Source: an uncultured Candidatus Rokubacteria bacterium
Lineage (GTDB): Bacteria > Methylomirabilota > Methylomirabilia > Rokubacteriales > CSP1-6
DNA length: 64,000 bases
Reading direction: 5' to 3'
Assembly: GCA_963789955.1 (NCBI GenBank)
Contig: CAWBMV010000020.1
Coordinates: 64,001-128,000, forward strand
The translations under genes and the position numbers were made by a program. Below are positions 44,805 to 62,082 of this stretch, piece by piece (the first letter of the stretch is position 1; the number at the start of each line of letters is the position of its first letter). The notes beneath the pieces were generated by a model. It was not told the DNA's origin. It did no database searches and worked only from the letters and a program-made list of their open reading frames with translations.

Positions 44805-44812
44805 GGGTTACC

Positions 44813-47800
44813 TCAGAAGCCCAGAGCCCGCACTTCGTCGCGGAAGCGCTGGACGTTGCGGAGCTTGATCTCCTCGTAGCCTCGGATCACATCGGGCAGC
44901 CCGGCAAGCTTCACCGCCCGCTCGTAGCTCTCCGGCGAGAGACCGACCAGCGCCTTTTCGACGAGGGCCCGATACTCGCCGACCAGCTGCCGCTCGACCC
45001 GGCGCACCGCGGCGAACCCGAAGGGATCGAGCGGCGTGCCGCGCAGCACCTTCATGCGGGCCAGCACCTTGAAGACCGAGCCGAACCACGGGCCGAGCTT
45101 GAGCTTCTCCTTGAGACCGAAAGCCCGGAGCATCGGCGGGTGGAGATTGTAGGAGAGCTTCACCCCGCCGGGGAACTCCTCGGCCAGTGCGCGGCCGATG
45201 TCGGGCTTGAGCGAGAGGCGCGCCACTTCGTACTCGTCCTTGTAGGCCATCAGCTTGAAGAGATAGCGCGCGACCGCCTCGGCCAGGCGCGACTCTCCCG
45301 GCACGGTTGCGGCTTCGGCCTCGCGCACGCGCCGGACGAACTGAGCGTACGCGCGCGCGTAGCCCGCGCTCTTGTAGGCGATCAGCTCGGGCACGCGGAT
45401 CTCCAGGAGCCGCTCGAGCTCGCCCGCGCCGCCGACCGAGTCCACGATGGTGCGTGCCTGCGCCGATAGCTCCGGCGCCGTCGCGATGGCGCCCAGGCGC
45501 CGCCGGACCACCGTGCGCGCCCACGCTGGATCCGCCACCAGCAGCCGGCCCACGCGGAACGCCTGGCTGTTCATCTGCACGGAGACGCCGTTCAACACGA
45601 TCGCTTCCTCGATCGCCGCCTCGCTCACGGGCAAGGCGCCCGCCTGCCAGGCCGCGCCGAGCACGATCATGTTGGCCGCCATGTGGTCGTCGAAGAGCGT
45701 CTCGGCCAATCCGAGCGCGTCCAGGAAGACGTTCTCGTCCTTGCGGGTCACGCGATTGATCGAGGTGATCGAGTCCGTTGGCCTCGGGGAACTCGACCGC
45801 CGTCGACGTCACCATCGCGCCGGTCGGCACCTGGCTGGTCGAGACGATCGCGATCGTGCGCTCGGGGCGCGCGTGATCGAGGTTCTGCGGCGAGGTCGCC
45901 ACGAGGATGTCGAAGCCGAGATAGCAGTCCGCGGAGCCGGCCGCGATCTTGGACGAGGCCTGCGTGGCCCGGTCGAGGATCTTCAGATGCGAGACCACCG
46001 GCCCGCCCTTCTGGCTCAGACCGGTCTGATCGAGGCCGCGCACGAGCTTGCCGTCGAGGAGCGCGGCGGTGCCCAGGATCTGGTTGACCGTGACGACGCC
46101 GGTGCCGCCGATGCCCATCATGAAGACGTTGGCCTCGGCCGGGACCTTGGCGTCCGGCTCGGGCAAGGTCCGGTCGACCTTGAAGACCCGGCGCTCCTTC
46201 TTTCGCGGATCCGCGAGCGGCACCACCGTCAGGAACGACGGGCAGTCACCCTTCAGGCACGAGTAGTCCTTGTTGCAGGACGACTGATGGATCTGCGTCT
46301 TGCGCCCGAACTCGGTCTCGACCGGATGCACCGACAGGCAGTTGCTCTTCACGCCGCAGTCGCCGCATCCCTCGCAGATCGCCTCGTTGATGAAGACGCG
46401 CATCTCGGGATCGGGCAGCCGGCCACGCTTGCGCAGGCGCCGCTTCTCGGCGGCGCACCGCTGGTCGTACACGAGGGCCGTGACGCCGGGGATATCGCGC
46501 AGCAACCGCTGAGCCTCGTCGAGCCGATCGCGATGCCACACCTCGACGCCGGACGCCCACGCGGTGCCTTTCGGATACTTGTCGGGCTCGTCGGTCATCA
46601 CGATGATGCGCTTGACGCCCTCGGCGGCGATCGAGCGCGTCAGCTCGGGCACCGGCATCGCGCCCGCGGCGTCCTGCCCGCCCGTCATCGCCACCGCCGA
46701 GTTGTAGAGGATCTTGTAGGTGATGTTGGCGCTCGAGGCGACCGCCTGACGGATCGCCAGGGAGCCGGAGTGGAAGAAGGTGCCGTCGCCGAGGTTCTGG
46801 AAGAGATGCTTCGTCTCGGTGAAGGGCGCGATGCCCACCCACTGCACACCTTCGCCGCCCATGTGCGTGAGCCCCATCGTGCGGCGGTCCATCAAGAGCG
46901 CCATGCCGTGGCAGCCGATGCCCGCGCTGGCCATCGACCCCTCGGGCAGTACGGTCGAGCGGTTGTGCGGGCAGCCCGAGCAGAAGTAGGGCTGACGGCT
47001 CAGGGTCAGCGGCGCGGGCCGCTGGCGCAACGCCTCGAGCAGCGCCACACGCGCGGTGATCGAATCGAGATGGATTCGGCGCTCGAGACGCGAGGCCAGG
47101 ATCTGGGCGATCCGGTCGGCGTCGAGCTCGCTGTCGGCGGGCACGAGCGGACGGCCCTGCTCGTCCTGCTTGCCGACCACCCGGGGGCGCTCGGCCTGGT
47201 TATAGAGGATGTCGCGGATGAAGAGCTCGCAGAACGCGCGCTTCTCCTCGATGACCAGGAGCTCCTCGAGACCCAGGGCGAACTCGCGGACCGTACCCCG
47301 GCTCCATCGGGAACATCATCTCGATCTGCATCAGACGGATGCCGTACTGCCGGAGCGCCGCGTTGTCGAGCCCGAGCTCGGCGAGCGCCTCGCGCAGGTC
47401 GTAGTACGTCTTGCCGGGCGCCGCGATGCCGAGCCACGCGTTCGGCGTCGGCAACGTGATGCGATTGAGCTTGTTCGCCGCGGCGAACGCCTTCGCCGCC
47501 TCGAGCCGCCCGTAGTGGATCTCGCGCTCGGCCTCGAGCCCCCACGGCGGCATCAAGAGCGGGGTCTGCCGCGCCTGCCAGGGCCGTCCTTCATAGAGGA
47601 AGCCCGGATCGGCGATGACGATACGGTCGGGCGCCACCTCGGCCGTGCCGATCTCGTCGGCCACGTTGGTGACGATCTTGAAGCCGACCCAGAGCCCGGA
47701 GTAGCGCGAGAGCTCGAAGCCGAGCCGGCCGAGGTCGAGGATCTCCTGCGCGCTGCCGGGATAGAGCACCGGGAAGAGCGCGTCGTAGAACGCCACTTCC

Positions 47801-48279
47801 GAGTGCGACGGGATCGTCGATGACTTCGAGAGCGGATCGTCGCCGCCGAGCGCCAGCACGCCGCCGTTGCGCCCGACACCGGCGAAGTTCGCGTGCTTGA
47901 AGATGTCGCCGGTGCGATCGACACCCGGGCCCTTGCCGTACCACATGCCGAGCACGCCGTCGTACTTCGGCTGCGGGAACAGATTGGCGAGCTGGCTGCC
48001 GTAGACGGCCGTCGCGCCGAGGTCCTCGTTGACACCCGAGAGGAAGACGACGTTGTGCTGACGGAGCAGGTCGGGGTTCCGCTCCAGGGTGAGATCCAGT
48101 CCGCCCAGCGGCGAGCCGCGATAGCCGGAGATGAGGGTAGCGGTGTTGAGCCCGCGGCGCTTGTCGGCGCGGTGCTGGTCGAGCGGCAAACGCACCAACG
48201 CCTGAATGCCCGAGAGGAAGATGAGACCTTCCTCCTGGCGGTATTTGGCGTCCAGAGTGAAATCACGCTTGATCGCCAT
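44813..48279 (-). CDS. Fused indolepyruvate:ferredoxin oxidoreductase family protein (frameshifts ~47290, ~45770)
   Basis: SGYRGSPLGG, WYGKGPGVDR, FCSGCPHN, TPP motif GDGTFFHSG, ferredoxin CEGCGDC...CxxxDCPSF, GIGGTGV, LMAYKDEYEVARL. Confidence 0.92.
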
Positions 48280-48359
48280 GGGTCTCCTCTCGAAGTGACT
48301 GCACGTATGATACGGGGCGCCACGGGTGGGGCGCAAATCGGTCCGGAGGTGCGAGCGCG

Positions 48360-49681: not shown

Positions 49682-50201
49682 TCAAGGTTGGCGGAGGCGT
49701 CCGAGGGCCCGTCGGGCCTGTCGCGCTTTCTTGGAAAGTCGGCGGGGGTTACCGCGCTTCTCCCGACCCGGCTCATCGTCGGAATCGTCCTTTGAATCGG
49801 GCGTATCCGCGCCCGACGAGCTTTCCGGAACTTCCAGCGCTTCCAGAAATTGCTCGGCCGTCAGCACCGCGCTCCCGGCCCGCCGGGCGGCGTCCTGGAC
49901 CTTCCGATCCGAGCTGACGACGACGGCGCCGTTTCGCAGCTGCCGCGCGAGCCGCATCAGCTCATCGTCGGCCGTCAGCGGCGGGCGCGAGAAGACCACA
50001 CGAATGCGTCCCGGCGGCGGCGTGCCGCCGGAGAGTCGCGCCCCGTCGAACACGACGGTGAACTCGTCCTTCGGGGCGCGGTCGGCCCGCGCGATGAGAG
50101 TGCACGAGCGCTCGCCGTCCCGCTTCCAGGCTCTCGGCTTCTCGAGCCCGGAGGTCCGGATCGCGTCGGATGAGGTTGTAGCCATCGACGAGCCAGCGCA
50201 T
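49682..50201 (-). CDS. NYN (YacP-like PIN fold) domain protein, frameshift ~50110
   Basis: WLVDGYNL, VVFDG, VVFS...TADD, VVSSDR. Confidence 0.85.
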
Positions 50202-50242: not shown

Positions 50243-51421
50243 ATGGACGATCCTTCGCTGATCCTGGTCGGGGGCGGCTCCCTGACGCCCGAGTCCGCGC
50301 GGTCCCTTCCGCCCGGCGGCATCGTCCGATTGATGGTCTATCGACCCTCGATCCCGCCGGTTGACGTGGGTGACGTGGTAGAGGTCATCCCGGGAGCGCG
50401 CGGACGCGTCGGTGACCTCGTGCTCTGTGTCGACGCCGATCGATGTGAGCTCGGACGGGTTATCAGTCATGACGGACCTTCCGTCGTGATCGAAGTCGGC
50501 GCGGAGGGGATTCGCCACGCGCTCGGCGCCGGTGCCGTCCTCGGTGTCGCGGCGGCTCTCGAGCAGGGCGATCTGCTGTTCGACCTCCAGCGCGGACGCT
50601 GGCGCGCGGCGGGCCGCCTCGCGGCGACCGTCCCGGCCCGGCTCGGCGGCTTCATGACGGCCCTGTCGTGGCTGGAGCGCCTGCGCCGCCCATTGTTCCC
50701 GCCGCTCTTCATGGGCAGCGAGGCGCAGCTGCTGGAGCGCCTCACCGCCGCCTACGACACTGAGGTCGAGGTCACCGGCCGCGAGACGGCGCTCCTGCCC
50801 GAGGAGCAGACTTTGCTCGAGCATCATCTACGGCCAGGCCAGCGGCTGCTCGACGTGGGCTGCGGGGCGGGCCGCGAGGCGATCGGCTTCGCGCGCGCAG
50901 GGCTATCCGTCGTCGGGATCGACGTGGCGCCGGCGATGGTGGCCCTGGCGCGCGCGCGGGCGCGGCAGGCGGGACTCACGATCGAGCTCGCAGTTGCCGA
51001 GCCTCTGACCTTGCCCGCGAACTTCGGCCGGTTCGACGCGGTCTACTTCAGCCCGGGGATCTACGCCCACATCCCCAGTCGAGAGCGCCGCGTGCGGACG
51101 CTCTCGCGGCTACGCGAGATGCTCGCCCCAGGCGGGCTGATCGTGGTCGGTCCCGTTCTCGCCCCGACCCTGCGAGCGTTCTCCCGCGCCCGTCTCGTCG
51201 ACGCGCTCCGGAGGGTTGGCCGCCGTGCGGGCCTCCACCGGCTGGCCGAGCCAGGCGACCGCTTGTATCGCGGTCACGCGCTCGACCGCGCCGCGACCTC
51301 GCACCGCTACATCCACTACTTCAGCACCAGCGAGGAGGCCGAGATGGAGATGGGGGAAGCCGGCCTCGCGGTGACCGAGCGGCTCGACGTGACCTGCTGG
51401 ATCCTCCGCCCGCGCAGCTGA
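50243..51421 (+). CDS. Degenerate S24/S26-fold domain fused to a class I SAM-dependent methyltransferase
   Basis: Motif I LLDVGCGAGR, GIDVAPAMV, FDAV, LAPGG. The N-terminal ~140 aa aligns by eye with the S26 peptidase at 55733-56178. Confidence 0.8.
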   Translation: MDDPSLILVGGGSLTPESARSLPPGGIVRLMVYRPSIPPVDVGDVVEVIPGARGRVGDLVLCVDADRCELGRVISHDGPSVVIEVGAEGIRHALGAGAVLGVAAALEQGDLLFDLQRGRWRAAGRLAATVPARLGGFMTALSWLERLRRPLFPPLFMGSEAQLLERLTAAYDTEVEVTGRETALLPEEQTLLEHHLRPGQRLLDVGCGAGREAIGFARAGLSVVGIDVAPAMVALARARARQAGLTIELAVAEPLTLPANFGRFDAVYFSPGIYAHIPSRERRVRTLSRLREMLAPGGLIVVGPVLAPTLRAFSRARLVDALRRVGRRAGLHRLAEPGDRLYRGHALDRAATSHRYIHYFSTSEEAEMEMGEAGLAVTERLDVTCWILRPRS

Positions 51422-52597
51422 CTAGCGAAGCTGGCGTGCCGCCAGCCAGCACACTCTCAGCGGATGCACGGCGCGATAGAGCGGCACCTGCCACGGCTCG
51501 AGCGCGTAGTGGTGCCTGAGCCACGTGGCCGAGGGAAAGAACGTCCACGCGAAGACCCGCATGACGTCGGACGCGCGGTCCATCAGGAGCGTCTGAGCCG
51601 GATAGACGCGCGTGTCGTCGAGCGCGCCCGCGAGACTCGGTGGCGCGGACGCGCCGATGCGCTCCGCGACCGCCGCGCGGCGCCATCGGCCCCGCTCGAG
51701 GCGTTCGAGGAGCCTGGCAGGGAGCGGCGTGTCGAACGAGCGCGTGACGACACAGAGCGTCCAGCCGATGAGCGTCCGGACGCGCCAGCGGTCGGCCTCC
51801 TTCACGAGGAGGTCCCAGTCGAGCTCAGCGGCAAATCGGCGGACGACCGCATCGATATCGGCGTACCAGAGCGCGCGCGCGAAGTCCGAGCCGAGCGTCA
51901 GGTGCAGGACGAGGTGCAGCAGCAGATCCTCGGGCGAGAGCATGAGGCTCTGACCCTCGGGCGTGAGGAGCGGCCGGGCCCGACTCCACATCCCCTCGTG
52001 GTCGACCTCGACGACCCCCTCGAATCGGAGGTAGCGCGCGGCATGCCAGTGGAGATCGATCCGCGTCCCGTCGCGCACGAGCTCTGCGAAGCTCCGCGAC
52101 TCGCCGAGGAGATCGGCTCCTTCCCCGGGCGTCCGATATCCGAGGGCCCGCAGCGTGGCGAGCGCGACAGCGCGTTCTGTCGGACGCACGAGGAGGTCGA
52201 CGTCCGCCATCGGTCGGAGACCAGGCTCGGCGTAGACGACATTCGCGAGCGCCATACCCTTGAGGGTGAGTGTCACGACACCCGCCTGGCGAAGCGCCGC
52301 GGTCGCTTCGCCCCAGTGACGCGCGAGCACGGCGTTCGCGGCCCAGACGGCCCGCGCGACCTCGGTCAGACGACGACGCGCCGGAGTCGGCAGGCGATCG
52401 AGCAGATCGAGGCGATGAAGGTGGGAGCGGAGAAGAGGCGCCGTGCCTTCGCGAACCGCGAGCTCGACGAGAGCGGGCCAGTCGACGGCGCCGGACACGA
52501 GGGCCGCGAGCTCGACATCACCCGAGGATTCGACATGGCTGCGCGCGCCCAGGAGCAACAGTCGCGCGTCCGGATAGAGCTCGGCGCGCGGGAGCAT
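51422..52597 (-). CDS. Nucleotidyltransferase family protein (type found in lasso/RiPP clusters)
   Basis: TLKGMALA..VY...GLRPMADVDLLV, IDLHW, EDLLLHLVLH, WYADI. Confidence 0.87.
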   Translation of the reverse strand: MLPRAELYPDARLLLLGARSHVESSGDVELAALVSGAVDWPALVELAVREGTAPLLRSHLHRLDLLDRLPTPARRRLTEVARAVWAANAVLARHWGEATAALRQAGVVTLTLKGMALANVVYAEPGLRPMADVDLLVRPTERAVALATLRALGYRTPGEGADLLGESRSFAELVRDGTRIDLHWHAARYLRFEGVVEVDHEGMWSRARPLLTPEGQSLMLSPEDLLLHLVLHLTLGSDFARALWYADIDAVVRRFAAELDWDLLVKEADRWRVRTLIGWTLCVVTRSFDTPLPARLLERLERGRWRRAAVAERIGASAPPSLAGALDDTRVYPAQTLLMDRASDVMRVFAWTFFPSATWLRHHYALEPWQVPLYRAVHPLRVCWLAARQLR

Positions 52598-52602
52598 GCC
52601 GC

Positions 52603-52764
52603 CTACGACGTCGTGCTCGTCCGACTCCCCTTGCCCATACTCGTCCGCTGCGCGTTGCTGCACGTCCCGTTGGTGGCGCGGCAGCACGTGGTCGTGTCGG
52701 CGCCGAAGATACTACTCGGCTCGAGCATGGGCTTCTCGTAGGGCCGCTTGTCCTGGGTTGCCAT
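52603..52764 (-). CDS. Putative RiPP precursor peptide, 53 aa (MATQDKRPYEKPMLEPSSIFGADTTTCCRATNGTCSNAQRTSMGKGSRTSTTS)
   Basis: Strong RBS GGAGGAG before ATG 52764; YxxPxL leader motif; Cys/Ser/Thr-rich C-terminal half; lies between the rSAM and nucleotidyltransferase genes. Confidence 0.8.
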   Translation of the reverse strand: MATQDKRPYEKPMLEPSSIFGADTTTCCRATNGTCSNAQRTSMGKGSRTSTTS

Positions 52765-53899
52765 CGTCAGCTCCTCCCGCGGTACGGATCTGGTAAAGAC
52801 GGCGCTGGGCGCCGGCAAGCGTGCGCGCCCGCTCGTGGCATTGCTTCCACTCGCCCTCGCCGCGTTCGAGCAGGTTGTCGCCATGGCAGCGGTTGCAGAA
52901 CCCGACGACCTCGCAGGAGGAGCACTCCGGCAGGTCGGCGTAGTGCTGGACCGACAGAAGATCCCGGATCGCCGGCGGCGGGGCCGTCCAGAGCTCGCGG
53001 AACGGCGTTTGCCGCACGTTGCCCATGGGGACGCGAAACGCGATGCACGGGAACACGTTGCCGTACGGATCGATGCAGCAGCCATTCGTCGCGGGTCCGC
53101 ACGTGGCGCGCTGGCGGGCAACGTCCTCGGGGCGGCCTTCCTGCGGCTCGAGCTGCTCGCTCCACGTCGACTCGCGGAGGTACCGGAGCAGCTCGTCGCC
53201 GTCGAGCTGATACTCCTGCGGCACGTGACCATCGCGCGGCACAGCGCCGTCGATCCGGGGGCTCACCTCGCAGCTATAGGTGTGAGTGAACACGCCGAGG
53301 TCCTTGCCGAGCCGGTCGAGCTTCGCGAGGCCGTCGATGTTCGGCTTCATCACGACGGTTTTGAGGTAGACGCGCAGGCCGTGGCGCTGCAGGCGCTCGA
53401 CCGCGGCCATGAGCCTCCGGAAGGAGCCCGGCACGCGGGTGATCGCATCGTGCACCGCCGGATCCGCGGAGAAGATCGACAGCTCGACGGTCAAGGGCTC
53501 GAGCGCCGCCAGCCGCTCGACCTTCGCCTCTGTGAGGCCGATCCCGTTGGTGAAGATCCGGTACGCGAAGCCGCGCCGGCGCGCATGCTCGGCAATGTCG
53601 AAGAAGTCGGGCCGTACCATGACCTCGCCGCCCGAGAGCGTCAGATAAAGCCCGCCCATGCCGGCCAACTCGTCGAGGAGCCTGCGGATCTCGTCGAGCG
53701 TGAGCTCGTGGCGGCGCACCTCCTGCTCGCGACCGTGCTCGACCACGCAGTAGCAATGGACGCACTGCTCGTTGCACCGGTAGGTGAGCTCGAGATGGAC
53801 GTTGAGGGGCGTCCGATTCCGGTCCGCCTTGGCGCTGATCAGCGCCATCAGCGAGGCATCGCCGAGTCCCGCGTTCTGAGCGCAGCCTTCGAAGATCAT
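52712..53899 (-). CDS. Radical SAM/SPASM domain peptide maturase
   Basis: CNEQCVHC (CxxxCxxC), SGGE, FTNG; SPASM C...IDPYGNVFPC...CSSCEVVGFCNRC...C; ATGA-coupled to the PqqD gene. Confidence 0.93.
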   Translation of the reverse strand: MIFEGCAQNAGLGDASLMALISAKADRNRTPLNVHLELTYRCNEQCVHCYCVVEHGREQEVRRHELTLDEIRRLLDELAGMGGLYLTLSGGEVMVRPDFFDIAEHARRRGFAYRIFTNGIGLTEAKVERLAALEPLTVELSIFSADPAVHDAITRVPGSFRRLMAAVERLQRHGLRVYLKTVVMKPNIDGLAKLDRLGKDLGVFTHTYSCEVSPRIDGAVPRDGHVPQEYQLDGDELLRYLRESTWSEQLEPQEGRPEDVARQRATCGPATNGCCIDPYGNVFPCIAFRVPMGNVRQTPFRELWTAPPPAIRDLLSVQHYADLPECSSCEVVGFCNRCHGDNLLERGEGEWKQCHERARTLAGAQRRLYQIRTAGGADDGNPGQAALREAHARAE

Positions 53900-54192: not shown

Positions 54193-54982
54193 CGAGATAG
54201 CTCCAGAGCGCGGGCTCCGGTTTGAACGCGAGCTCCCACGTGGGCACCGTCGCGACGAGCGTGGCGAGCGTCTCGAGGAGTCGCGTGGTCACGCGGTCGT
54301 CGCGTTTGGGCAGCATGACCTCCGGGAACGCGCGGGCGACCGCCTCCGAGGCCGGCAGTCGCCGGCGGGCGAAGTGATCGGCCTTGCGAAGAAAGCACAG
54401 ACCACGAATCGGGGCGCGCTCGTTCGTGCGAGCCATGGACGGGCCGCCGGATCCATAGAAGGGCGTCGCGCAGGCCTCCCAGCCTCGCGGGCCGGGACGT
54501 AGCGCGATCGTCTCGTCGTTGAGCACGGGCCGGTCGCCCGCGAGGCCGGCGATGGTGGTCTTGCCGCTGCCCGAGGGACCTGAGAAGACCCACGCGCGAC
54601 CTCCGTCGACGACGGAGGACGCGTGGAGCAGGACCCCACCTTTTTGCATGAGGAGGAAGCTGCACAGGAGCCGGAACAGGTCGGGATTCAGCGCCGGTCC
54701 GGGGCCAGCACGGAAATCCACCCGGCGGCGTCCGAGATCGCCGTGCGCTCGAGAAGGATGGCTTGCGAGCGCGAAGCGACCCCCCTCCCACGTCGCCGAC
54801 GGGCGCGGCGTGCGGCCCGGACGATAGCGCTCGGTCGCCCGCACGCGTACTCCGAAGGTCGGCGCCCGTCGTGACAAGAACGGACCGTATCGATCCTCCA
54901 CCCACGCGCGCGCGGTGGCGCCGAGACCCGCGACGCCGAACACGACGCCCGCGACCTCGATCCGCGGAGTCCGTTCAGCCAA
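54179..54982 (-). CDS. HprK-related P-loop kinase (ScmC-like/RiPP-associated)
   Basis: GVLLHASSV, GPSGSGKTT (Walker A), VLNDE, TPF.G. Confidence 0.85.
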   Translation of the reverse strand: MAERTPRIEVAGVVFGVAGLGATARAWVEDRYGPFLSRRAPTFGVRVRATERYRPGRTPRPSATWEGGRFALASHPSRAHGDLGRRRVDFRAGPGPALNPDLFRLLCSFLLMQKGGVLLHASSVVDGGRAWVFSGPSGSGKTTIAGLAGDRPVLNDETIALRPGPRGWEACATPFYGSGGPSMARTNERAPIRGLCFLRKADHFARRRLPASEAVARAFPEVMLPKRDDRVTTRLLETLATLVATVPTWELAFKPEPALWSYLDGRD

Positions 54983-55736
54983 CGGCCACGCCTTCGGTCA
55001 GCGGATTGGACGCGTCAAGCCCGCGGCAGCGCAGGACCGCCACGACGCGGGTCGCGAGGTCGAGGGTGCGCTCGACGGCGGGGCGCCGCCGGTCGGCTTG
55101 CCAGATCGAAGGGAGCAATGCGCGCACCGCCTCGGCCGCACTCAGCGGTTCCTGGCCGCCGGGCAACCCGAGCGTCGTCGCGCGCCAGCCGTTCGCAGGC
55201 CGCGGGCCGTCGCCGACGAGAAACGGCGTCACAAGGACGGCGACGTGGTCCGCCGTGGGCCTCACCGCAAACCAACCAGCAGTCGCGGACGAAGGTATCG
55301 CCCAAGCCGGCAGCCCGCAGATAAGAGTCGCTGATTCGGTAGGGCCGAAGCAGGCGGCCTGAACGAGCAAGGTCTCGCACTCGGCGAGCCACAGCGCGGT
55401 CAGGGTCCGCATGAGGCCGGCGACGTCGAATCCCGCCGCTATCTTGACGGTGACACGACCGCCCGGCACGTCGACGACCGCCCGGTAGTAGCCCGTCGAC
55501 ACGCGAAGATTCCGACCGCGACGGCTCACGGTGGCCGCGTCGGCGACCGTGTCGCCGACCGATCGCCAGCCGTGGCGCCCGTCGCGCTCCTCGTAGTCGA
55601 TTCGCACGGTCACGTCGGGCCGACGGCACGTGATGAATGCGGGATGGTTTCGAGCCCAGAACCCGGGCTTCGGGAAGGGACAGGACAGCTGAAAAACGAT
55701 ACCCGCGACGTCGACCTTGTCGGTGTGGCGCCTCAC
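54975..55736 (-). CDS. Degenerate HprK-related paralog lacking the P-loop
   Basis: Same N-terminal layout as 54179-54982 (VDVAGIVF vs IEVAGVVF), LLVQAAC in place of LLHASS, TPF and AEAVRALLP retained, no GxxGxGKT. Confidence 0.6.
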   Translation of the reverse strand: MRRHTDKVDVAGIVFQLSCPFPKPGFWARNHPAFITCRRPDVTVRIDYEERDGRHGWRSVGDTVADAATVSRRGRNLRVSTGYYRAVVDVPGGRVTVKIAAGFDVAGLMRTLTALWLAECETLLVQAACFGPTESATLICGLPAWAIPSSATAGWFAVRPTADHVAVLVTPFLVGDGPRPANGWRATTLGLPGGQEPLSAAEAVRALLPSIWQADRRRPAVERTLDLATRVVAVLRCRGLDASNPLTEGVAVG

Positions 55737-56178
55737 GCCCGCGGCCGCGCGCGGCAGCGCGTACCAGCCACGCCGCCGCTCCGAAGGAGCGCGCGGCCGT
55801 GAAGATCGCCAGCGCCCGTTGGCGGAGCGTCGACAGGTCGACGGTGACGCCGCGACGCTCGAACGCCGTCACGATGCCGAGGATCTGCGGCGCGGTCACC
55901 ACCTCCGGCCCGACACCGCGATTGTCCGCGCGGGTCAGCAGCGCGGCGCCGCGCCGGCCGATCACGCGGTGACACACGAGGGTGCCCTCGCTCTCGTACG
56001 CGAGCAGATCGCCGAATCGCGCAGGCGCCGGAGGCGTGACGAAGATCCACGCGCCCGCACCGAGCAGGGGTCGCATGCTCCGGCCGCGTATCGGCAACCA
56101 GACCGACTCGCCGGCCCCGAGGCGTTCGCGGAGGATCTCGGTCACGACCGGTCGCCAGACGGCGGCGGGGCTCGACAT
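55733..56178 (-). CDS. S24/S26 family peptidase (signal-peptidase-I-like); 3' end uncertain (likely indel)
   Basis: GRSMRP (catalytic Ser), GD, VCHRV, RADN, ILGIV. Confidence 0.8.
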
Positions 56179-56229
56179 ATCGCCTCATCCTACCCCGAAT
56201 CATCGCCGCCCTCTGCTACCATCGCGCGC

Positions 56230-57846
56230 GTGACCGCCGCGACCCGCTGGCCCGAAGCCCACGCGTCGCGCGGGCTCGTCGCGACCCCGCACGCGCTCGC
56301 TTCCGAGGCCGGGCTGGCGATCCTCGCGCGCGGCGGCAACGCCGTGGACGCCGCGATCGCAGCCGGCGCAGCGATCGCCGTCGTCTATCCGCACATGAAC
56401 GGGGTCGGCGGGGACAGCTTCTGGCTGATCTACGACGGGCGCCATCGCCGGCTGCGCGCGCTGAACGCGGCGGGCCGATCGGCGGCGGCGGCCGATCTCG
56501 AGCAATATCGCGCGCGCTTCGGCGTAGCGATTCCGGTGCGCGGCGGGGTCGCGGCGCTGACGGTGCCCGGCGTCGTCTCGGGCTGGTGGGCGGCCCACGC
56601 GCTGAGCCGCGACTCGCTGGGCTCCCCCATCACCTGGAGCACGCTGCTCGAGGCGGCGATCCATCACGCGCGCGACGGCTTCCCGCCGTCACAAAGCCAA
56701 GGTCGCGAGACCGCCGACGCCACGGATCTCTTCGGTGACGCGACGCCGGCCGACCTCCGCGAGTCACTCTGGCCCGTCTTTCATCCCGAGCTCTTGAAGC
56801 GCGAGCGGTTCGTCCAGGCGGATCTGGCGTCGACCCTGGAAGAGATCGCCCGGAGCGGGGGTGACGCGTTCTATCGCGGCGCGCTCGCTCGCCGCCTCGC
56901 TCGAGCCGCTGGTGCCGCCGGCAGCCTCCTGACCGCCGACGATCTGGCGCGCCACCGGCCCGAGTGGGTCGAGCCGCTGCGCATTCCCTACCGCGGCGGC
57001 GAGGCCACGAGCTTTCCGCCGCCGACCCAGGGTTTCGCCGCGCTCGCGATCCTGTCGCTGCTCGAGGGGTTCGAGATCAAGTCCCTGGCCGAGGCCGACT
57101 ACGTGCACCTCGTCGTCGAAGCGACGAAGCTCGCGTTCGAGGACCGCGATCGCTATCTCGCCGATCCGACGGTCGCGTCCGTTCCGGTCGCCCAGTGCCT
57201 CGATCCGGCGCGCCTCGCCGAGCGCCGCCGGCGAATCTCGCGACGGGCCGCGATGCCGGCCGCCGGACCGGCCGCGAAGGGCGACACGATCGCCATCGTC
57301 ACCGCGGACGCGCAGGGGAACGCGGTGTCACTGATCCAGAGCCTCTACTGGGAATTCGGCTCGGGCGTGGTCGCGGGCGACACCGGCGTCCTTCTTCAGA
57401 ACCGGGGCGCGTTCTTCTCGCTCGACCCGGGGCACGTGAATTGCCTGGCGCCGCACAAGCAGACGGCGCACACCTTGATCCCGTCCATGTACCTCGTCGA
57501 CGGACGTCCGCGTCTCGTCTACGGCACGATGGGCGGAGAGGGCCAGCCGCAGACGCAGGCGGCCCTCGTCACGCGCATCGTCGATCGCGGACTCGGTCCA
57601 CAAGCGGCGGTCGAGGCGCCGCGCTGGCTCTTCGGGCGAACCTGGGGCGAGGAGACCCGCTCGCTGAGGCTCGAGGATCGATTTGGCGACGACGTCCGGG
57701 ACGCGCTTCGCGAGCGGGGGCACGAGGTGGAGATCGTCGAAGGTTGGAGCGATCTGATGGGCCACGCGCAGGTCATTCGTCTCGACGCGACCGGACTCAC
57801 CGGCGCTTCGGATCCACGCGCCGACGGGGCGGCTCTCGGCTTCTAG
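56230..57846 (+). CDS. ggt: Gamma-glutamyltransferase family protein
   Basis: GGNAVDAAIA, GVGGDSF, TVPG, PPPTQG, autocatalytic Thr in GDTIAI, LQNRG, GTMGGEGQPQ, SDPRADG. Confidence 0.92.
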   Translation: MTAATRWPEAHASRGLVATPHALASEAGLAILARGGNAVDAAIAAGAAIAVVYPHMNGVGGDSFWLIYDGRHRRLRALNAAGRSAAAADLEQYRARFGVAIPVRGGVAALTVPGVVSGWWAAHALSRDSLGSPITWSTLLEAAIHHARDGFPPSQSQGRETADATDLFGDATPADLRESLWPVFHPELLKRERFVQADLASTLEEIARSGGDAFYRGALARRLARAAGAAGSLLTADDLARHRPEWVEPLRIPYRGGEATSFPPPTQGFAALAILSLLEGFEIKSLAEADYVHLVVEATKLAFEDRDRYLADPTVASVPVAQCLDPARLAERRRRISRRAAMPAAGPAAKGDTIAIVTADAQGNAVSLIQSLYWEFGSGVVAGDTGVLLQNRGAFFSLDPGHVNCLAPHKQTAHTLIPSMYLVDGRPRLVYGTMGGEGQPQTQAALVTRIVDRGLGPQAAVEAPRWLFGRTWGEETRSLRLEDRFGDDVRDALRERGHEVEIVEGWSDLMGHAQVIRLDATGLTGASDPRADGAALGF

Positions 57847-59058
57847 CTCAGCGGCAGCTCCCGCTCGAAGACCGTGAACGGGAGAGCGGCGCGCGGCGTC
57901 GAGGGCCTGGCGGATTTGCGCCTCGCCGCGGCCGGCGCCCTGCTGGAGCAAGGTCTCGAAGAAGGCCACGTAGAACGCGTCCGGCTCGACGACGACGGCC
58001 ACCCGCGCCCGCAGTCCGGTCGCGTCGATCGTCGTCCGATAGGTGAGCGTCGTGCTCTTGCCGGGCATGAGGCGGGTGTCGAAGAGCTCGCGCGAGAGGT
58101 CGAGGGCCACCTCCGCGACCGATGATCTGCTCCCGCCGGCTGCCGGCGACGACCTGGCCGGTATCGTCGACCAGCTCGAGCGCTCAGGACCACGCGCGGC
58201 GTGACGTACGTCGGCAACGCGTGGCCGATGCGCGTGCTGCTCACCCGGAGCGTGACGAGCGCGAGCTCGCCGGGGCGATAGCGCGGGGCCCCCGCCTTGG
58301 CCTCGATCGTGAGCCCGGACCGCACCATGCTCGAGATCGTGGATCCCGCGCCAGCGGTGGCGCCGGTCGGGCATGTGGCAGTCCTGGCACTGCACGCCCT
58401 GGCGCGCGAAGCGGCTCGCCTTCCACTCGTCGTAGGTCGCCTGGAGCAGCTTGCCGTTGAGCGCGAACCCGTCGGGCGTGAACTGGTGGCAGCCCCGGCA
58501 GAACTCGGCCTTGAGGAACGCCGGCGTTCGCGTCACGCCGTTGTGGGGCAAGGTCTCATGCGGGGCGCCGCTCGCCAGCGAGCCGTCTCGCCGGGGCGGG
58601 CCGAAGCGTTCGTGGCCCCGGACGTGACAGCCCGCGCACGGCACGCCCCGGCCCGCGAGCGAGGCGTCGTAGTCCGGGTTCTCGCGAAGCTCGCGGCCCA
58701 CGGCCGCGAAGGGTCCCTGCTCGGCGAGCGGGGCGTGACAGACGAGACACGCGTGCGCCGACGACGGATCGCTCTCCCGCATCTCGACGAGCTGGCCGGC
58801 GACACCGGGTCCGCTCGCGGCGGCGTGCAGGCTCTCGCGCCAGTCGGCGAGCTGCGCGGGATGGCAGGTCCCGCACGACTCCGGCTGGAGCGAGGCTTCC
58901 AGCGGCGAGAATCGCGCCGGCGGCGCGCCTTGCGGCGCCAGCGGCTGGCGCCAGTGCCGTCGGATGAAATCCTGGATCGCGTCGGCGCCGGCGGCCGCCG
59001 CGGCCCCGAGCAGCACGGTCGCGGCCGCCGCGCACGCGAGACGGAAGCGAAGTCGCAT
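57843..59058 (-). CDS. Periplasmic multiheme cytochrome c (5 CxxCH) with C-terminal beta domain; frameshifted 3' part
   Basis: Signal peptide; CGTCH, CLVCH, CAGCH, CRGCH, CQDCHMP. Confidence 0.88.
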
Positions 59059-59137
59059 CGACGGGATGCATGATAGCGTGCGCCGACTGCTGTACAGTAG
59101 GATCCGCAGTCATCCTGACCGCTTCCGGAGAACGCTG

Positions 59138-61695
59138 GTGGATCCGTATCGCCTGCCGCGACACGTGCGACCGACCCGGTACGATCTGCGCCTCGAGCCC
59201 GATCTGGCGACCCTGACGTTCACGGGCGACGAGACGATCACGCTCGAGATCCAGGAGCCGACCGCGGAGGTGGTGCTCAATGCCGTGGACCTCGCGTTCG
59301 GCGAGGCGACGCTCGCGAACGCGCGCGGCGAATCGCTGCGCGGAACGCCGGTCGTCGACGAGGCCGCCGAGCGCTGCCGCATCGCGTTTCCGTCGCAGAT
59401 CGCGCCGGGTACCTGGCGGCTGCGCCTCGCCTTCACCGGCACCTTGAACGACAAGCTGCGCGGCTTCTACCGGTCGAGCTACAAGGATCCGACCGGCGAG
59501 GCGCGGCTGATGGCCGCCACCCAGTTCGAGGCGACCGATGCGCGCCGGGCGTTTCCGTGCTGGGACGAACCGGCCTTCAAGGCCGTGTTCGCGGTGACGC
59601 TCGTGATCGATCCGACGCTGACCGCGGTGTCGAACACGTCGATCGTCGGCGAGCGCGTCGAGCGCGGCCGGAAGGTCGTGACCTTCGCCGACACGATGAA
59701 AATGTCGACCTATCTGGTGGCGTTCGTCGTCGGCGAGCTCGAGGCCACCGACGCGATGATGGTCGGCCGGGCCCCGGTCCGCGTCTGGTGCGTCCCGGGC
59801 AAGCGTCATCTGGCCGCGTTCGGCCACGAGATCGGCGTCGCCTCGCTGCGATTCTTCGAGGAGTACTACGGGCTGCCGTATCCGAGCGACAAGCTCGACC
59901 TGCTCGCGATTCCGGACTTCGCGGCTGGGGCCATGGAGAACCTGGGCGCGATCACCTTCCGGGAGACCGCGCTCCTGGTCGACGCCCGCGCTGCGTCCCA
60001 CTCCGAGCTGGAGCGGGTCGCCGACGTGGTCGCGCACGAGAACGCGCACATGTGGTTCGGCGATCTGGTGACGATGACGTGGTGGAACGGCATCTGGCTC
60101 AACGAGGCGTTCGCCACGTTCATGGAGATCCTCGCGGTCGACGCCTGGAAGCCCGAGTGGCAGCGCTGGACGACGTTCGGCGTCTCGCGCGCCGCCGCCC
60201 TCTCGGTCGACGGGCTGCACTCGACGCGCCCGATCGAGTTTCGCGTCGAGGCCCCGCGCGACGCCGACGCGATGTTCGACGTGCTCACCTACGAGAAGGG
60301 CGCGTCGGTGCTGCGCATGCTCGAGCAGTATCTCGGCGCGACGGTGTTCCGTGACGGCGTGCGCGAGTACCTCCGGCGCCACGCCTACGCCAACGCCGAG
60401 ACCGGCGATCTCTGGGCCGCGCTCGGGCGGGCCGCGAACCAGCCGATCCCCGAGGTGATGGACGCCTGGATCTTCCAGCCCGGCTATCCGCTCGTGAGCG
60501 CCCGGCTCGACGGCAACCAGCTCGTGCTGAGCCAGCAGCGCTTCACCTATTTGCCGGAGCCCCTGCCCGGCTCGACGCCTTCGCCGCGCGAATCAGCAGT
60601 GGCAGGTGCCGGTGCAGGTCCGCTTCAACGCCGCGGGGCGCGTATCGACGGAGCGGCGGCTCCTCGCGGGCGGCGAAGCCCGCGTGCCGGCTCCCGAACG
60701 CCTCGAATCCGTCCTCGTCAACGACGGCGGCCACGGCTTCTACCGCGTCCGCTACAGCGGCGAGCTGCTCGAGCGCCTCCTCGGCGGGCTCGAGCGGCTC
60801 GGCGGCATCGAGCGCTTCAACCTCGTCAACGACGCGTGGGCGGTGACGGTGGCCGGCCACATGGCCGTGACCGACTATCTCGAATTGACCGACGCGCTTC
60901 CGCGGCGAGCGCGATCGCAACGTGTGGTCGGTGCTGATCGCCTCGTTCTCGATGTTGAACCGTATCGCGGAGCCGGCGCAGCGGCCGCGACTCGCCGCAC
61001 TCGTCCGCGACCGCGTCGCGCCGGCCTTCACCGAGCTCGGCTGGACACCGCGAGCCGGAGAAGACGAGCTCACGCGCCAGCTCCGCGGCGACCTGGTGCG
61101 CGTGATGGGCGCGCTCGGCGACGATCGGGCCGTGCAGGCGCGGGCCACCGAGCTCTACGCGAAGGCGGCGGCCGAGCTCGATCCCAACGTCCTGCCCGCC
61201 ATCATCGGCGTGCTCGCGCACGCGGGCGACGGGGCGCGTTACGACGAATTTCTGAAGAAGTTCCAGTCCGCGGCGACGCCTCAGGAGGAGCAGCGCTTCC
61301 TCTACGCGCTGGCCGCCTTCCGCCAGCGCGAGCTGCTGACCCAGACGCTCGCCCGCGCGATCAACGGCGAGTTCCGGACCCAGGACGCACCGTTCGTCGT
61401 GCGCTCGCTGCTCACGTCCGTGTACGGGCGCGAGCTCGCCTGGGAGTTCGTGAAGACCAACTGGGACACGATGGAGCGGCAGTACCCGAAGGCGGGACTC
61501 CGGCGACTGGCCGAGGGCGTCGTCGGGCTCGCGACGCCGGAGCTCGAGCGGGACGTCCACGCCTTCTTCCAGGCCCGCCGGCCCGAGTTCGGCGGCAAGA
61601 CCCTGGAGCAATACCTGGAGCAGCTTCGCATCGCGGTCCGCCTGCGCGAGCGCGAGTCGACGGCGCTCACCACCTATCTGGCGCGATTCGCCTGA
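59138..61695 (+). CDS. pepN: M1 family zinc aminopeptidase with ERAP1-like C-terminus (frameshifts ~60590, ~60900)
   Basis: TQFE..DARRAFPCWDEP, GAMEN, HENAH...NEAFA (HExxH-x18-E), YEKG. Confidence 0.93.
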
Positions 61696-61737
61696 GGGAC
61701 ATCGACGGATCTATCACGACGCCCGCTGGAGCGGGCG

Positions 61738-62082
61738 TTAATCCGCCGCGTCCGGCGCGTAGCGGAGAACTCGTACCTTCTCCATCGTGACCAGACCGCC
61801 CTTCATGAGGCGGTCGATCTCCGGCAGCACTGCCGCCAGATGCTCCTCGCTGTCCACGACCTCGATCACGAGCGGGAGATCCTCCGAGAGCCTCAGGATG
61901 TTCGCGGTGTGGATTACCGAATTGGCGCCGAAGCCGGCGACGCCTTTGAGAACGGTCGCGCCGGCCAGCCCCCGAGCTCGCAGCAGCTCGAGCAGCGCGG
62001 TGTGCAGCGGTCGGTGACCGGCTCGATCGGACTCTCCGACGAACAGGCGCATCAGAACTTGCTCCCCGTCGATCTTCCGCAT
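61738..62082 (-). CDS. DUF190 (PII-like) protein
   Basis: RLFVGESD, GLAGATVLKGVAGFG, LSEDLPLVIEVVD; downstream of crcB. Confidence 0.9.
   Translation of the reverse strand: MRKIDGEQVLMRLFVGESDRAGHRPLHTALLELLRARGLAGATVLKGVAGFGANSVIHTANILRLSEDLPLVIEVVDSEEHLAAVLPEIDRLMKGGLVTMEKVRVLRYAPDAAD

What the first reader, a model, noticed from the sequence alone, without database searches (positions are those of the whole stretch)
52603..52764. Hidden 53-aa precursor peptide with YxxPxL leader and a CC-x6-C, Ser/Thr-rich core ending in Ser
Seen: the ORF track buries this inside a 209-aa ORF, but it has its own GGAGGAG RBS and ATG. The leader contains YEKPML. After FGA, the 31-residue tail DTTTCCRATNGTCSNAQRTSMGKGSRTSTTS has 3 Cys, 9 Thr and 5 Ser and no aromatic residue. 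Established: YxxPxL is the RRE-docking motif of lasso leaders, and lasso kinases phosphorylate the C-terminal Ser. Inference: the Cys residues form thioether links (sacti/ranthipeptide-like) rather than aromatic cyclophanes, and the terminal Ser is the kinase and then nucleotidyltransferase target.
Basis: partly seen in the sequence, partly recalled or inferred. Interest (0 to 1): 0.85.

Follow-up and report, generated by a model that had tools for sequence, protein, structure and literature searches.

The report
Radical-SAM, kinase-tailored peptide precursor gene
This is a real, unannotated small gene for a peptide that neighbouring enzymes are predicted to trim, phosphorylate at its last serine and rework with radical chemistry; it belongs to a widespread pathway of uncultured soil bacteria whose product is undescribed.

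Summary
The 53-aa peptide is real: it has its own RBS, dN/dS is 0.19 in its frame against about 2 in the other same-strand frames, and relatives sit beside the same genes. It is not a lasso precursor (no cyclase or B2). The operon holds an S26/SpI peptidase, a pseudokinase, an HprK-like kinase, an RRE, a radical SAM/SPASM enzyme and an NTP_transf_5, plus a methyltransferase. That is the toolkit of the linear polyphosphorylated peptides (LPP; Popov 2026), minus the transporter, plus a radical SAM enzyme. The leader YxxPxΦ-x5-F-x-x fits LPP-type cleavage after FGA. LPP's phosphosite (core Ser3) is absent; instead 125 of 125 unique precursors end in Ser, in 8 the only core Ser, so the terminal-Ser target is well supported by inference. 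Family invariants are C-x-[KR], a second Cys and the terminal Ser; the extra Cys of CC-x6-C is clade-specific. Thioether chemistry is unproven: no fixed acceptor, an 8-Cys SPASM domain, a poor match to the CteB active-site profile, and LPPs also carry Cys pairs without radical SAM. No paper on the family was found. The scan noted this cassette earlier in three other genomes.

The parts
52603..52764 (-). Precursor peptide gene, 53 aa (leader 1-22 at 52764-52699; predicted core 23-53 at 52698-52606)
52771..52777 (-). Ribosome-binding site GGAGGAG, 6 nt before the ATG
52723..52740 (-). RRE-docking motif Y9-x-x-P12-x-L14
   Evidence: motif role from PMC13381572
52606..52608 (-). Terminal Ser53, predicted kinase target
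   Evidence: 125 of 125 unique precursors end in Ser
52766..53899 (-). Radical SAM/SPASM maturase (about 378 aa in relatives; the window ORF reads on to 52712); 8 SPASM cysteines
   Evidence: PF04055 + PF13186
53896..54192 (-). Stand-alone RRE (PqqD family), 98 aa
54179..54982 (-). HprK-like kinase with H120, P-loop K141, D156-E157
54975..55736 (-). Pseudokinase paralogue: same fold, His, P-loop and DE lost in the window copy; found only with CC-type precursors
   Evidence: hhalign 99.5%
55733..56178 (-). S24/S26 (SpI/SipW-like) leader peptidase with S34, H70, D85; frame shifts about 10 codons before the stop used by relatives
   Evidence: PF00717, TIGR02228 below cut-off
51422..52597 (-). NTP_transf_5 nucleotidyltransferase
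   Evidence: PF14907 E 3e-46
50243..51421 (+). SAM methyltransferase with an N-terminal catalytically dead S26-like domain; convergent here, inside the operon in L008, L200, L202
   Evidence: PF13649; hhalign 92.5%, E 5e-7

Best explanation
The gene encodes the precursor of an undescribed RiPP built on the LPP/paeninodin toolkit with a radical SAM enzyme added. (1) The RRE binds YxxPxL. (2) The HprK-like kinase phosphorylates the C-terminal Ser, perhaps repeatedly, and the NTP_transf_5 protein then adds a nucleotide or sugar to that phosphate. (3) The radical SAM/SPASM enzyme oxidises the Cys-containing N-terminal half of the core; the single likeliest chemistry is one or more sulfur-to-alpha-carbon thioether rings (about 40% on its own). 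(4) The S26 peptidase, docked on the RRE-leader complex, cuts after F20-G21-A22 and frees a 31-residue core. In this clade a methyltransferase with a dead peptidase-like docking domain and a pseudokinase add a further step. Shown here: gene reality, operon, conservation. Inferred from LPP and lasso biochemistry: steps 1, 2, 4. Weakly inferred: step 3 and the methylation. The biological role is unknown.
For: The operon is conserved in close loci. A peptide-first search hit 34 of 251 genomes of the phylum; in the 33 genomes viewed every precursor ends in Ser and 32 have the radical SAM gene in the fetched stretch. The leader ends in F/Y-x-x (FVT 57, FGA 42, FET 19 of 125), matching LPP's F-3, E-2, T-1 cut site (PMC13381572). 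The peptidase keeps Ser, His and Asp at positions like LppS S29/H68/D93. Terminal Ser is present in 125 of 125 unique precursors and is the only core Ser in 8; LppK does not accept Thr; lasso kinases act on a conserved C-terminal Ser (PMC9266682). Kinase H, K, D and E are kept in 76-77 of 80 rows, 4 of which were pseudokinases. RRE-precursor complex: weak support, score 0.48 against best control 0.00, runs agree in 100% of contacts, partner pLDDT at least 54. The mark was reached by 116 of 157 solved and 2 of 215 mismatched pairs, but at 0.60 or under by only 18 solved pairs and by both mismatches; like complexes are solved, so the pass may be from memory. For sactionine: two Cys in every core; best PDB sequence and fold hit is the sactisynthase SkfB (E 2e-30; E 1e-14, 20% identity); the six-residue active-site profile scores 14 to SkfB and -1 to CteB.
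Against: No experiment on any member. No acceptor residue sits at a fixed distance from either Cys across the family; only [KR] at Cys+2 is invariant. The SPASM domain has an eighth Cys in 123 of 128 unique enzymes (absent in 2; 3 broken or off-pattern), whereas CteB, AlbA, RumMC2 and CrpC have seven with an open site; SkfB, though, keeps an open site despite four candidate ligands. The profile score of 14 is below the StsB-SkfB score of 21 and near SuiB's 11, and the commonest two-Cys-clade profile scores only 5-6 to CteB, StsB, SkfB and SuiB. Of 18 LPP precursor rows seen, 8 have a Cys pair though radical SAM is not in the LPP core set. The kinase motif is H-K-D-E, not the lasso H-K-D-D. The NTase lies in only 4 of 68 two-Cys loci against 37 of 38 CC loci, though present somewhere in 5 of 5 Acidobacteriota genomes tested. 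No ABC transporter signature in 88 loci of 9 kb or more (crude pattern). The loci are phylogenetically clustered, so counts are not independent.
Confidence: 0.55

Rival explanations
1. The conserved Cys pair is an ordinary disulfide loop, and the radical SAM enzyme acts on the terminal (phospho)Ser, for example by oxidative decarboxylation or dehydrogenation, giving a new C-terminal phosphorylated group.
For: The Cys-Cys loop varies from 5 to 10 residues (one outlier, 43) with no conserved content. LPP precursors carry Cys pairs without radical SAM (8 of 18 rows). The two best NCBIfam scores are the decarboxylases AhbD (122 bits) and MftC (120), both far below cut-off. The 8-Cys SPASM domain resembles non-thioether enzymes. 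The terminal Ser is the one fully invariant C-terminal feature.
Against: The CC clade has three Cys, so one cannot be in a disulfide. C-x-[KR] near core position 5 is invariant, which suggests enzyme recognition. StsB shows that MftC-like sequence can hide a sactisynthase (PMC10288494). The kinase already explains the terminal Ser.
Confidence: 0.2
2. The radical SAM enzyme oxidises Cys in place (thioaldehyde, then 5-thiooxazole as SbtM does), giving a possibly metal-binding peptide rather than cross-links.
For: This needs no acceptor residue, which fits the variable loop. There is precedent for a SPASM enzyme (PMC11002830 and PMC13638132 passages). Fully ligated clusters occur in the Cys dehydrogenase anSME.
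Against: The SbtM model TIGR04082 is not among the 25 best NCBIfam hits of this enzyme. No precursor found has Sec in place of Cys, though my search broke ORFs at TGA and could not see one.
Confidence: 0.12
3. It is an LPP in the strict sense: the kinase phosphorylates core position 3 (Thr25) or other internal Ser/Thr, and the terminal Ser has another role.
For: Same peptidase, RRE, kinase and NTP transferase set and the same F-x-x leader end. The window core has 14 Ser/Thr.
Against: Core position 3 is Leu in 81, Thr in 33 and Ser in 1 of 125. LppA S3T was not phosphorylated. Only 1 of 18 LPP precursor rows seen ends in Ser.
Confidence: 0.08
4. It is an orphan lasso precursor cyclised by enzymes encoded elsewhere.
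For: Lasso-type leader motif; the RRE is most like TbiB1 (E 3e-10); the genome has asparagine-synthetase-like genes.
Against: No PF13471 B2 peptidase in the genome (87% complete). None of the 19 PF00733 matches is on this contig. No cyclase motif in 88 large loci. 0 of 39 CC-type cores fit a lasso ring pattern.
Confidence: 0.02

Closest known systems
Linear polyphosphorylated peptides (LPP) of Bacillota, lpp cluster of Paenibacillus alginolyticus (PMC13381572)
   Same: SpI-like peptidase, discrete RRE, HprK-like kinase, NTP transferase, no macrolactam cyclase; YxxPxΦ leader ending in F-x-x (FET in 19 of 125 family members).
   Different: Adds a radical SAM/SPASM enzyme (and here a pseudokinase and a methyltransferase). 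No MsbA-like transporter found. Leader two residues shorter between P and F (7 against 9). Core Ser3 absent; invariant terminal Ser and C-x-[KR]. Hosts are Methylomirabilota and Acidobacteriota.
Paeninodin / pseudomycoidin phosphorylated lasso peptides (PadeK, ThcoK, PsmK, PsmN; review PMC9266682)
   Same: RRE-bound YxxP-type leader, HprK-like kinase, invariant C-terminal Ser, nucleotidyltransferase gene.
   Different: No B2 peptidase or cyclase, no lasso ring residues, kinase motif H-K-D-E rather than H-K-D-D, radical SAM present.
Sactipeptides (SkfB, StsB, AlbA) and ranthipeptides (CteB, CrpC)
   Same: RRE-dependent radical SAM/SPASM enzyme beside a Cys-containing precursor; SkfB is the best solved relative (about 20% identity).
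   Different: No family cut-off met (StsB model 96 of 625 bits, AlbA 66 of 850); 8-Cys SPASM domain; no conserved acceptor; kinase and NTase not part of those pathways.
SynChlorMet cassette (TIGR04248-04251; architecture recalled, model names from NCBIfam)
   Same: Kinase-like protein + PqqD protein + radical SAM/SPASM; ScmC is the best kinase hit (E 0.003 here, 2e-12 for L013).
   Different: All scores far below cut-off (ScmC 17 of 125, ScmD 28 of 100, ScmE 81 of 400 bits); one radical SAM gene here instead of two; no paper found under that name.

Membership tests
LPP | SpI-like peptidase with Ser/His/Asp | tested here: met
   S34, H70, D85; PF00717
LPP | Discrete RRE + HprK kinase + NTP transferase, no cyclase | tested here: met
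LPP | Leader YxxPxV...FET | tested here: inconclusive
   YxxPxL and F-3 kept; spacing 7 not 9; FGA in the window, FET in 19 of 125
LPP | Ser at core position 3 as phosphosite | tested here: not met
   Thr in the window; Ser in 1 of 125
LPP | MsbA-like transporter in the cluster | tested here: not met
   0 of 88 loci of 9 kb or more by a crude signature pattern
Lasso peptide | Macrolactam cyclase and B2 peptidase | tested here: not met
Lasso peptide (paeninodin type) | Conserved C-terminal Ser with kinase | tested here: met
   125 of 125; kinase motif H-K-D-E
Sactipeptide | S-to-C-alpha thioether made by radical SAM | not testable with these tools
   needs MS/NMR
Sactipeptide | Sactisynthase-like catalytic-site-proximity residues | tested here: inconclusive
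   14 to SkfB, 8 to StsB, 11 to SuiB; StsB-SkfB reference 21 (only five comparators)
Ranthipeptide | Seven-Cys SPASM with open Aux I site and a fixed acceptor side chain | tested here: not met
   eighth Cys in 123 of 128; CteB profile score -1; NxxC in only 23 of 39 CC and 1 of 65 two-Cys cores, CxxxD in 0 and 5. Ligation is inferred from sequence only.
Triceptide / cyclophane RiPPs | Conserved aromatic residue in the core | tested here: not met
   no Trp/Tyr in 122 of 125 cores
SynChlorMet cassette | ScmC/D/E/F models above cut-off | tested here: not met

The most novel reading that the evidence does not exclude
A new RiPP class in which the radical SAM enzyme acts on, or cross-links to, a kinase-made C-terminal phosphoserine, or joins Cys to the invariant Lys/Arg. 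The product would be a phospho-nucleotidylated or glycosylated macrocycle with a linkage not yet described, and further enzymes would be recruited to the RRE-leader complex through a dead copy of the leader peptidase (the methyltransferase's N-domain).
Probability: 0.2. Interest if true: 0.85.

Novelty: new variant of a known kind. Interest (0 to 1): 0.58.

Why it matters
It pins down the substrate, and so makes testable, a widespread orphan pathway of uncultured soil bacteria: 34 of 251 genomes of the host phylum, many Acidobacteriota loci, and 505 protein-cluster representatives at E<=0.001. The radical SAM enzyme is often mislabelled as heme synthase and fits no characterised maturase family, so its chemistry may be new. 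The family mixes the LPP way of leader removal with the lasso way of terminal-Ser phosphorylation, and offers a second setting for the unsolved function of NTP_transf_5. A dead peptidase domain fused to a methyltransferase suggests a new way of docking enzymes on RRE-leader complexes. Interest is held down because every part has a known counterpart and no product or function is shown.

Tried and rejected
The precursor has no Pfam or NCBIfam hit, and the ESM Atlas gives only unnamed clusters at 0.89-0.90. An NxxcB-type Cys-Asn link from the window's N-G-T-C was rejected: Asn is kept in 23 of 39 CC-type cores. Expression: two metatranscriptome runs hold contigs over the operon, three of them across part of the precursor in X18, but these are contigs of relatives at small share and do not show transcription. 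The first AlphaFold model (7 rows) was poor, pLDDT 54; the second (20 rows, pLDDT 82) gave only generic SPASM hits at 14-22% identity, and cluster ligation could not be inspected. The first pseudokinase profile comparison was circular and was redone without shared rows. The kinase has no solved relative beyond weak PEPCK P-loop matches. Neighbourhoods of four unlinked Acidobacteriota NTase genes showed no other pathway gene by eye. The primary papers on PadeK (PMC4919450) and SbtM (PMC8935624) were not held, so review passages were used; MftC ligand numbering could not be checked and is not used. The supplement search for the active-site profile table found nothing, so only five comparators were scored. 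Ten literature searches showed no listing that describes this family; the library lacks most subscription journals.

Full report
Observation. The minus-strand ORF 52764..52603 encodes the 53-aa peptide described, in frame at the end of a spurious 209-aa ORF. GGAGGAG lies 6 nt upstream and is the only such site before an ATG in the window. The tail composition is as stated. Forty unique same-length variants give dN/dS 0.19 in this frame against 2.2-2.3 in the other two same-strand frames. The gene is real.

Surroundings. The peptide lies in a tightly coupled operon: S24/S26 peptidase, kinase-like protein, HprK-like kinase, PqqD-type RRE, radical SAM/SPASM, precursor and NTP_transf_5, with a convergent methyltransferase. 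There is no lasso cyclase or B2 peptidase in the cluster. PF13471 is absent from the 87%-complete genome, and none of the 19 PF00733 matches lies on this contig. Most close relatives are labelled Rokubacteria/Methylomirabilota, so the host is probably of that phylum (inference). Two frameshifts near the ends of the radical SAM and peptidase genes are not shared by the close relatives compared and are probably assembly errors.

Family. Searches with the radical SAM enzyme returned 80 genome and 80 metagenome loci. A pattern on the leader and first Cys alone, blind to the last residue, found precursors in 124 of 160 loci; 123 were complete and all 123 end in Ser. Most of the 36 others are short contigs or distant enzymes. 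A peptide-first profile hit 34 of 251 genomes of the phylum. I viewed 33 of these genomes (G202 not fetched; a second weak match in G076 held no precursor): all 33 precursors end in Ser and 32 have the radical SAM gene in the stretch, the other ending at a contig edge. Over all loci, 125 unique complete precursors were scored, one truncated row dropped. All 125 end in Ser; the first Cys is at core position 5 in 116; K or R follows at Cys+2 in 125; 81 have two Cys and 44 have three; CC-x6-C occurs in 42 of the 44; 122 lack Trp/Tyr. Among 1.84 billion representatives 505 match at E<=0.001, and 147 of the best 150 end in Ser; the 3 others depart right after the conserved part and may be frameshifted or cut, which I did not check. 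The profile includes the terminal Ser, so those last counts are biased towards it, and kin are not independent.

Leader and peptidase. The closest described system is LPP (PMC13381572; I read the abstract, introduction, results sections 6-8 and 11, the discussion, and searched rows of the supplements). Its core genes are an SpI peptidase, RRE, HprK kinase, NTP transferase and transporter; the peptidase cuts after F-3/E-2/T-1 only with the RRE. Our leaders end in FVT, FGA or FET and the peptidase keeps Ser, His and Asp, so a cut after F20-G21-A22 follows by analogy. The RRE keeps the Asn and Asp that fix the leader's Pro and Tyr in LppB. The predicted RRE-precursor complex gave weak support: 0.48 against a best control of 0.00, contacts 100% in agreement, partner pLDDT at least 54. 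That mark was reached by 116 of 157 solved and 2 of 215 mismatched pairs, but at 0.60 or under by 18 solved pairs and both mismatches, and similar complexes are solved. The main text never mentions radical SAM. Its supplement lists some Acidobacteriota SpI-RRE pairs in other network clusters with precursor 'not determined'.

Kinase target. LppK phosphorylates core Ser3 and rejects Thr or Tyr there; lasso kinases act on the C-terminal Ser (PMC9266682 passages). Here position 3 is Ser in 1 of 125, while the terminal Ser is invariant and in 8 cores the only Ser. Only 1 of 18 LPP precursor rows seen ends in Ser. The kinase keeps H, P-loop K, D and E, with E for the second D of the lasso motif. The NTase step is less sure. 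It is adjacent in 37 of 38 CC-type loci but 4 of 68 two-Cys loci, though present in 5 of 5 Acidobacteriota genomes tested and only 2 of 14 controls. lppN deletion had no visible effect, and PsmN gave hexosylation.

Radical SAM chemistry. The enzyme meets no NCBIfam cut-off; best scores are AhbD 122, MftC 120, NirJ 112, PqqE 102 and StsB 96 bits. SkfB is the best PDB hit by profile and fold, at about 20% identity. The SPASM domain has the seven-Cys motif plus an eighth Cys in 123 of 128 unique enzymes. Thioether enzymes CteB, AlbA, RumMC2 and CrpC have seven with an open site for substrate sulfur; anSME, SuiB and PqqE are fully ligated; SkfB is open despite four candidates (passages of PMC6231123, PMC8188230, PMC13692751 and PMC10452713). 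[quoted passage not shown] They score 14 to SkfB, 11 to SuiB, 8 to StsB, 7 to PqqE and -1 to CteB, against 21 for StsB-SkfB; the commonest two-Cys-clade profile matches none. No acceptor is conserved, and 8 of 18 LPP precursor rows carry a Cys pair without this enzyme. Ranthionine is therefore disfavoured, sactionine is the single likeliest option (about 40%), and terminal-Ser oxidation with a disulfide loop or SbtM-type thiooxazole formation (passages of PMC11002830 and PMC13638132) remain open.

Clade extras. In loci of 7 kb or more, the pseudokinase was detected with 25 of 31 CC-type and 0 of 76 two-Cys precursors. The methyltransferase N-domain was detected with 24 of 31 and 1 of 76, that one being a cross-hit to the peptidase itself; three more methyltransferases sit between precursor and NTase in L008, L200 and L202. 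That N-domain aligns to the S26 peptidases (92.5%, E 5e-7) without the catalytic Ser and His. I infer a docking module for the RRE-leader complex; this is untested.

Novelty and verdict. Ten searches showed no listing on this family; subscription journals are largely missing, and bioRxiv supplements and figure-only tables could not be seen. Earlier notes of this scan describe the same cassette in three other genomes, and one supplied the LPP lead. It works like an LPP/paeninodin hybrid with a radical SAM step but fails LPP membership (no Ser3, no transporter) and lasso membership. New variant of a known kind, possibly a new RiPP class; interest 0.58.

Noticed in passing
G000:C21:85000-91100 (L208): A second cluster in the same genome: S26 peptidase, RRE, three radical SAM genes, kinase, NTase and a three-Cys precursor with a YxxP leader that also ends in Ser; no NCBIfam cut-off met.
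   Followed up: partly
L073:2876-3436: Two tandem precursors in a Ca. Eisenbacteria contig with the same leader and C-x-K start but long aromatic, Gly/Ser-rich cores, each ending in Ser.
   Followed up: no
window 50243-50720: The methyltransferase begins with a catalytically dead S26-peptidase-like domain, a candidate docking module for RRE-leader complexes.
   Followed up: partly
window 54975-55736: Pseudokinase paralogue directly upstream of the active kinase, confined to CC-type clusters.
   Followed up: partly
window 44808-48336, 58964-61790, about 55750, about 52775: Several genes appear split or read through by single-base indels (a pyruvate/indolepyruvate oxidoreductase-like gene named by eye, M1 aminopeptidase, peptidase and radical SAM ends), suggesting long-read assembly errors.
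   Followed up: partly
L161-L164: In four Acidobacteriota genomes the NTP_transf_5 gene is unlinked from the cassette and sits among apparently unrelated genes.
   Followed up: partly
L051, L177: Two radical SAM enzymes have Ala in place of the eighth SPASM cysteine, natural variants for testing Aux I ligation.
   Followed up: no
window 55720-57846 (+) and 49682-50180 (-): A gamma-glutamyltransferase and a YacP-like NYN gene flank the cluster in most close relatives; probably a shared insertion site rather than pathway genes.
   Followed up: no
window 57328-59058 (-): Multiheme cytochrome c (c554/MtrC-like domains) near the cluster.
   Followed up: no
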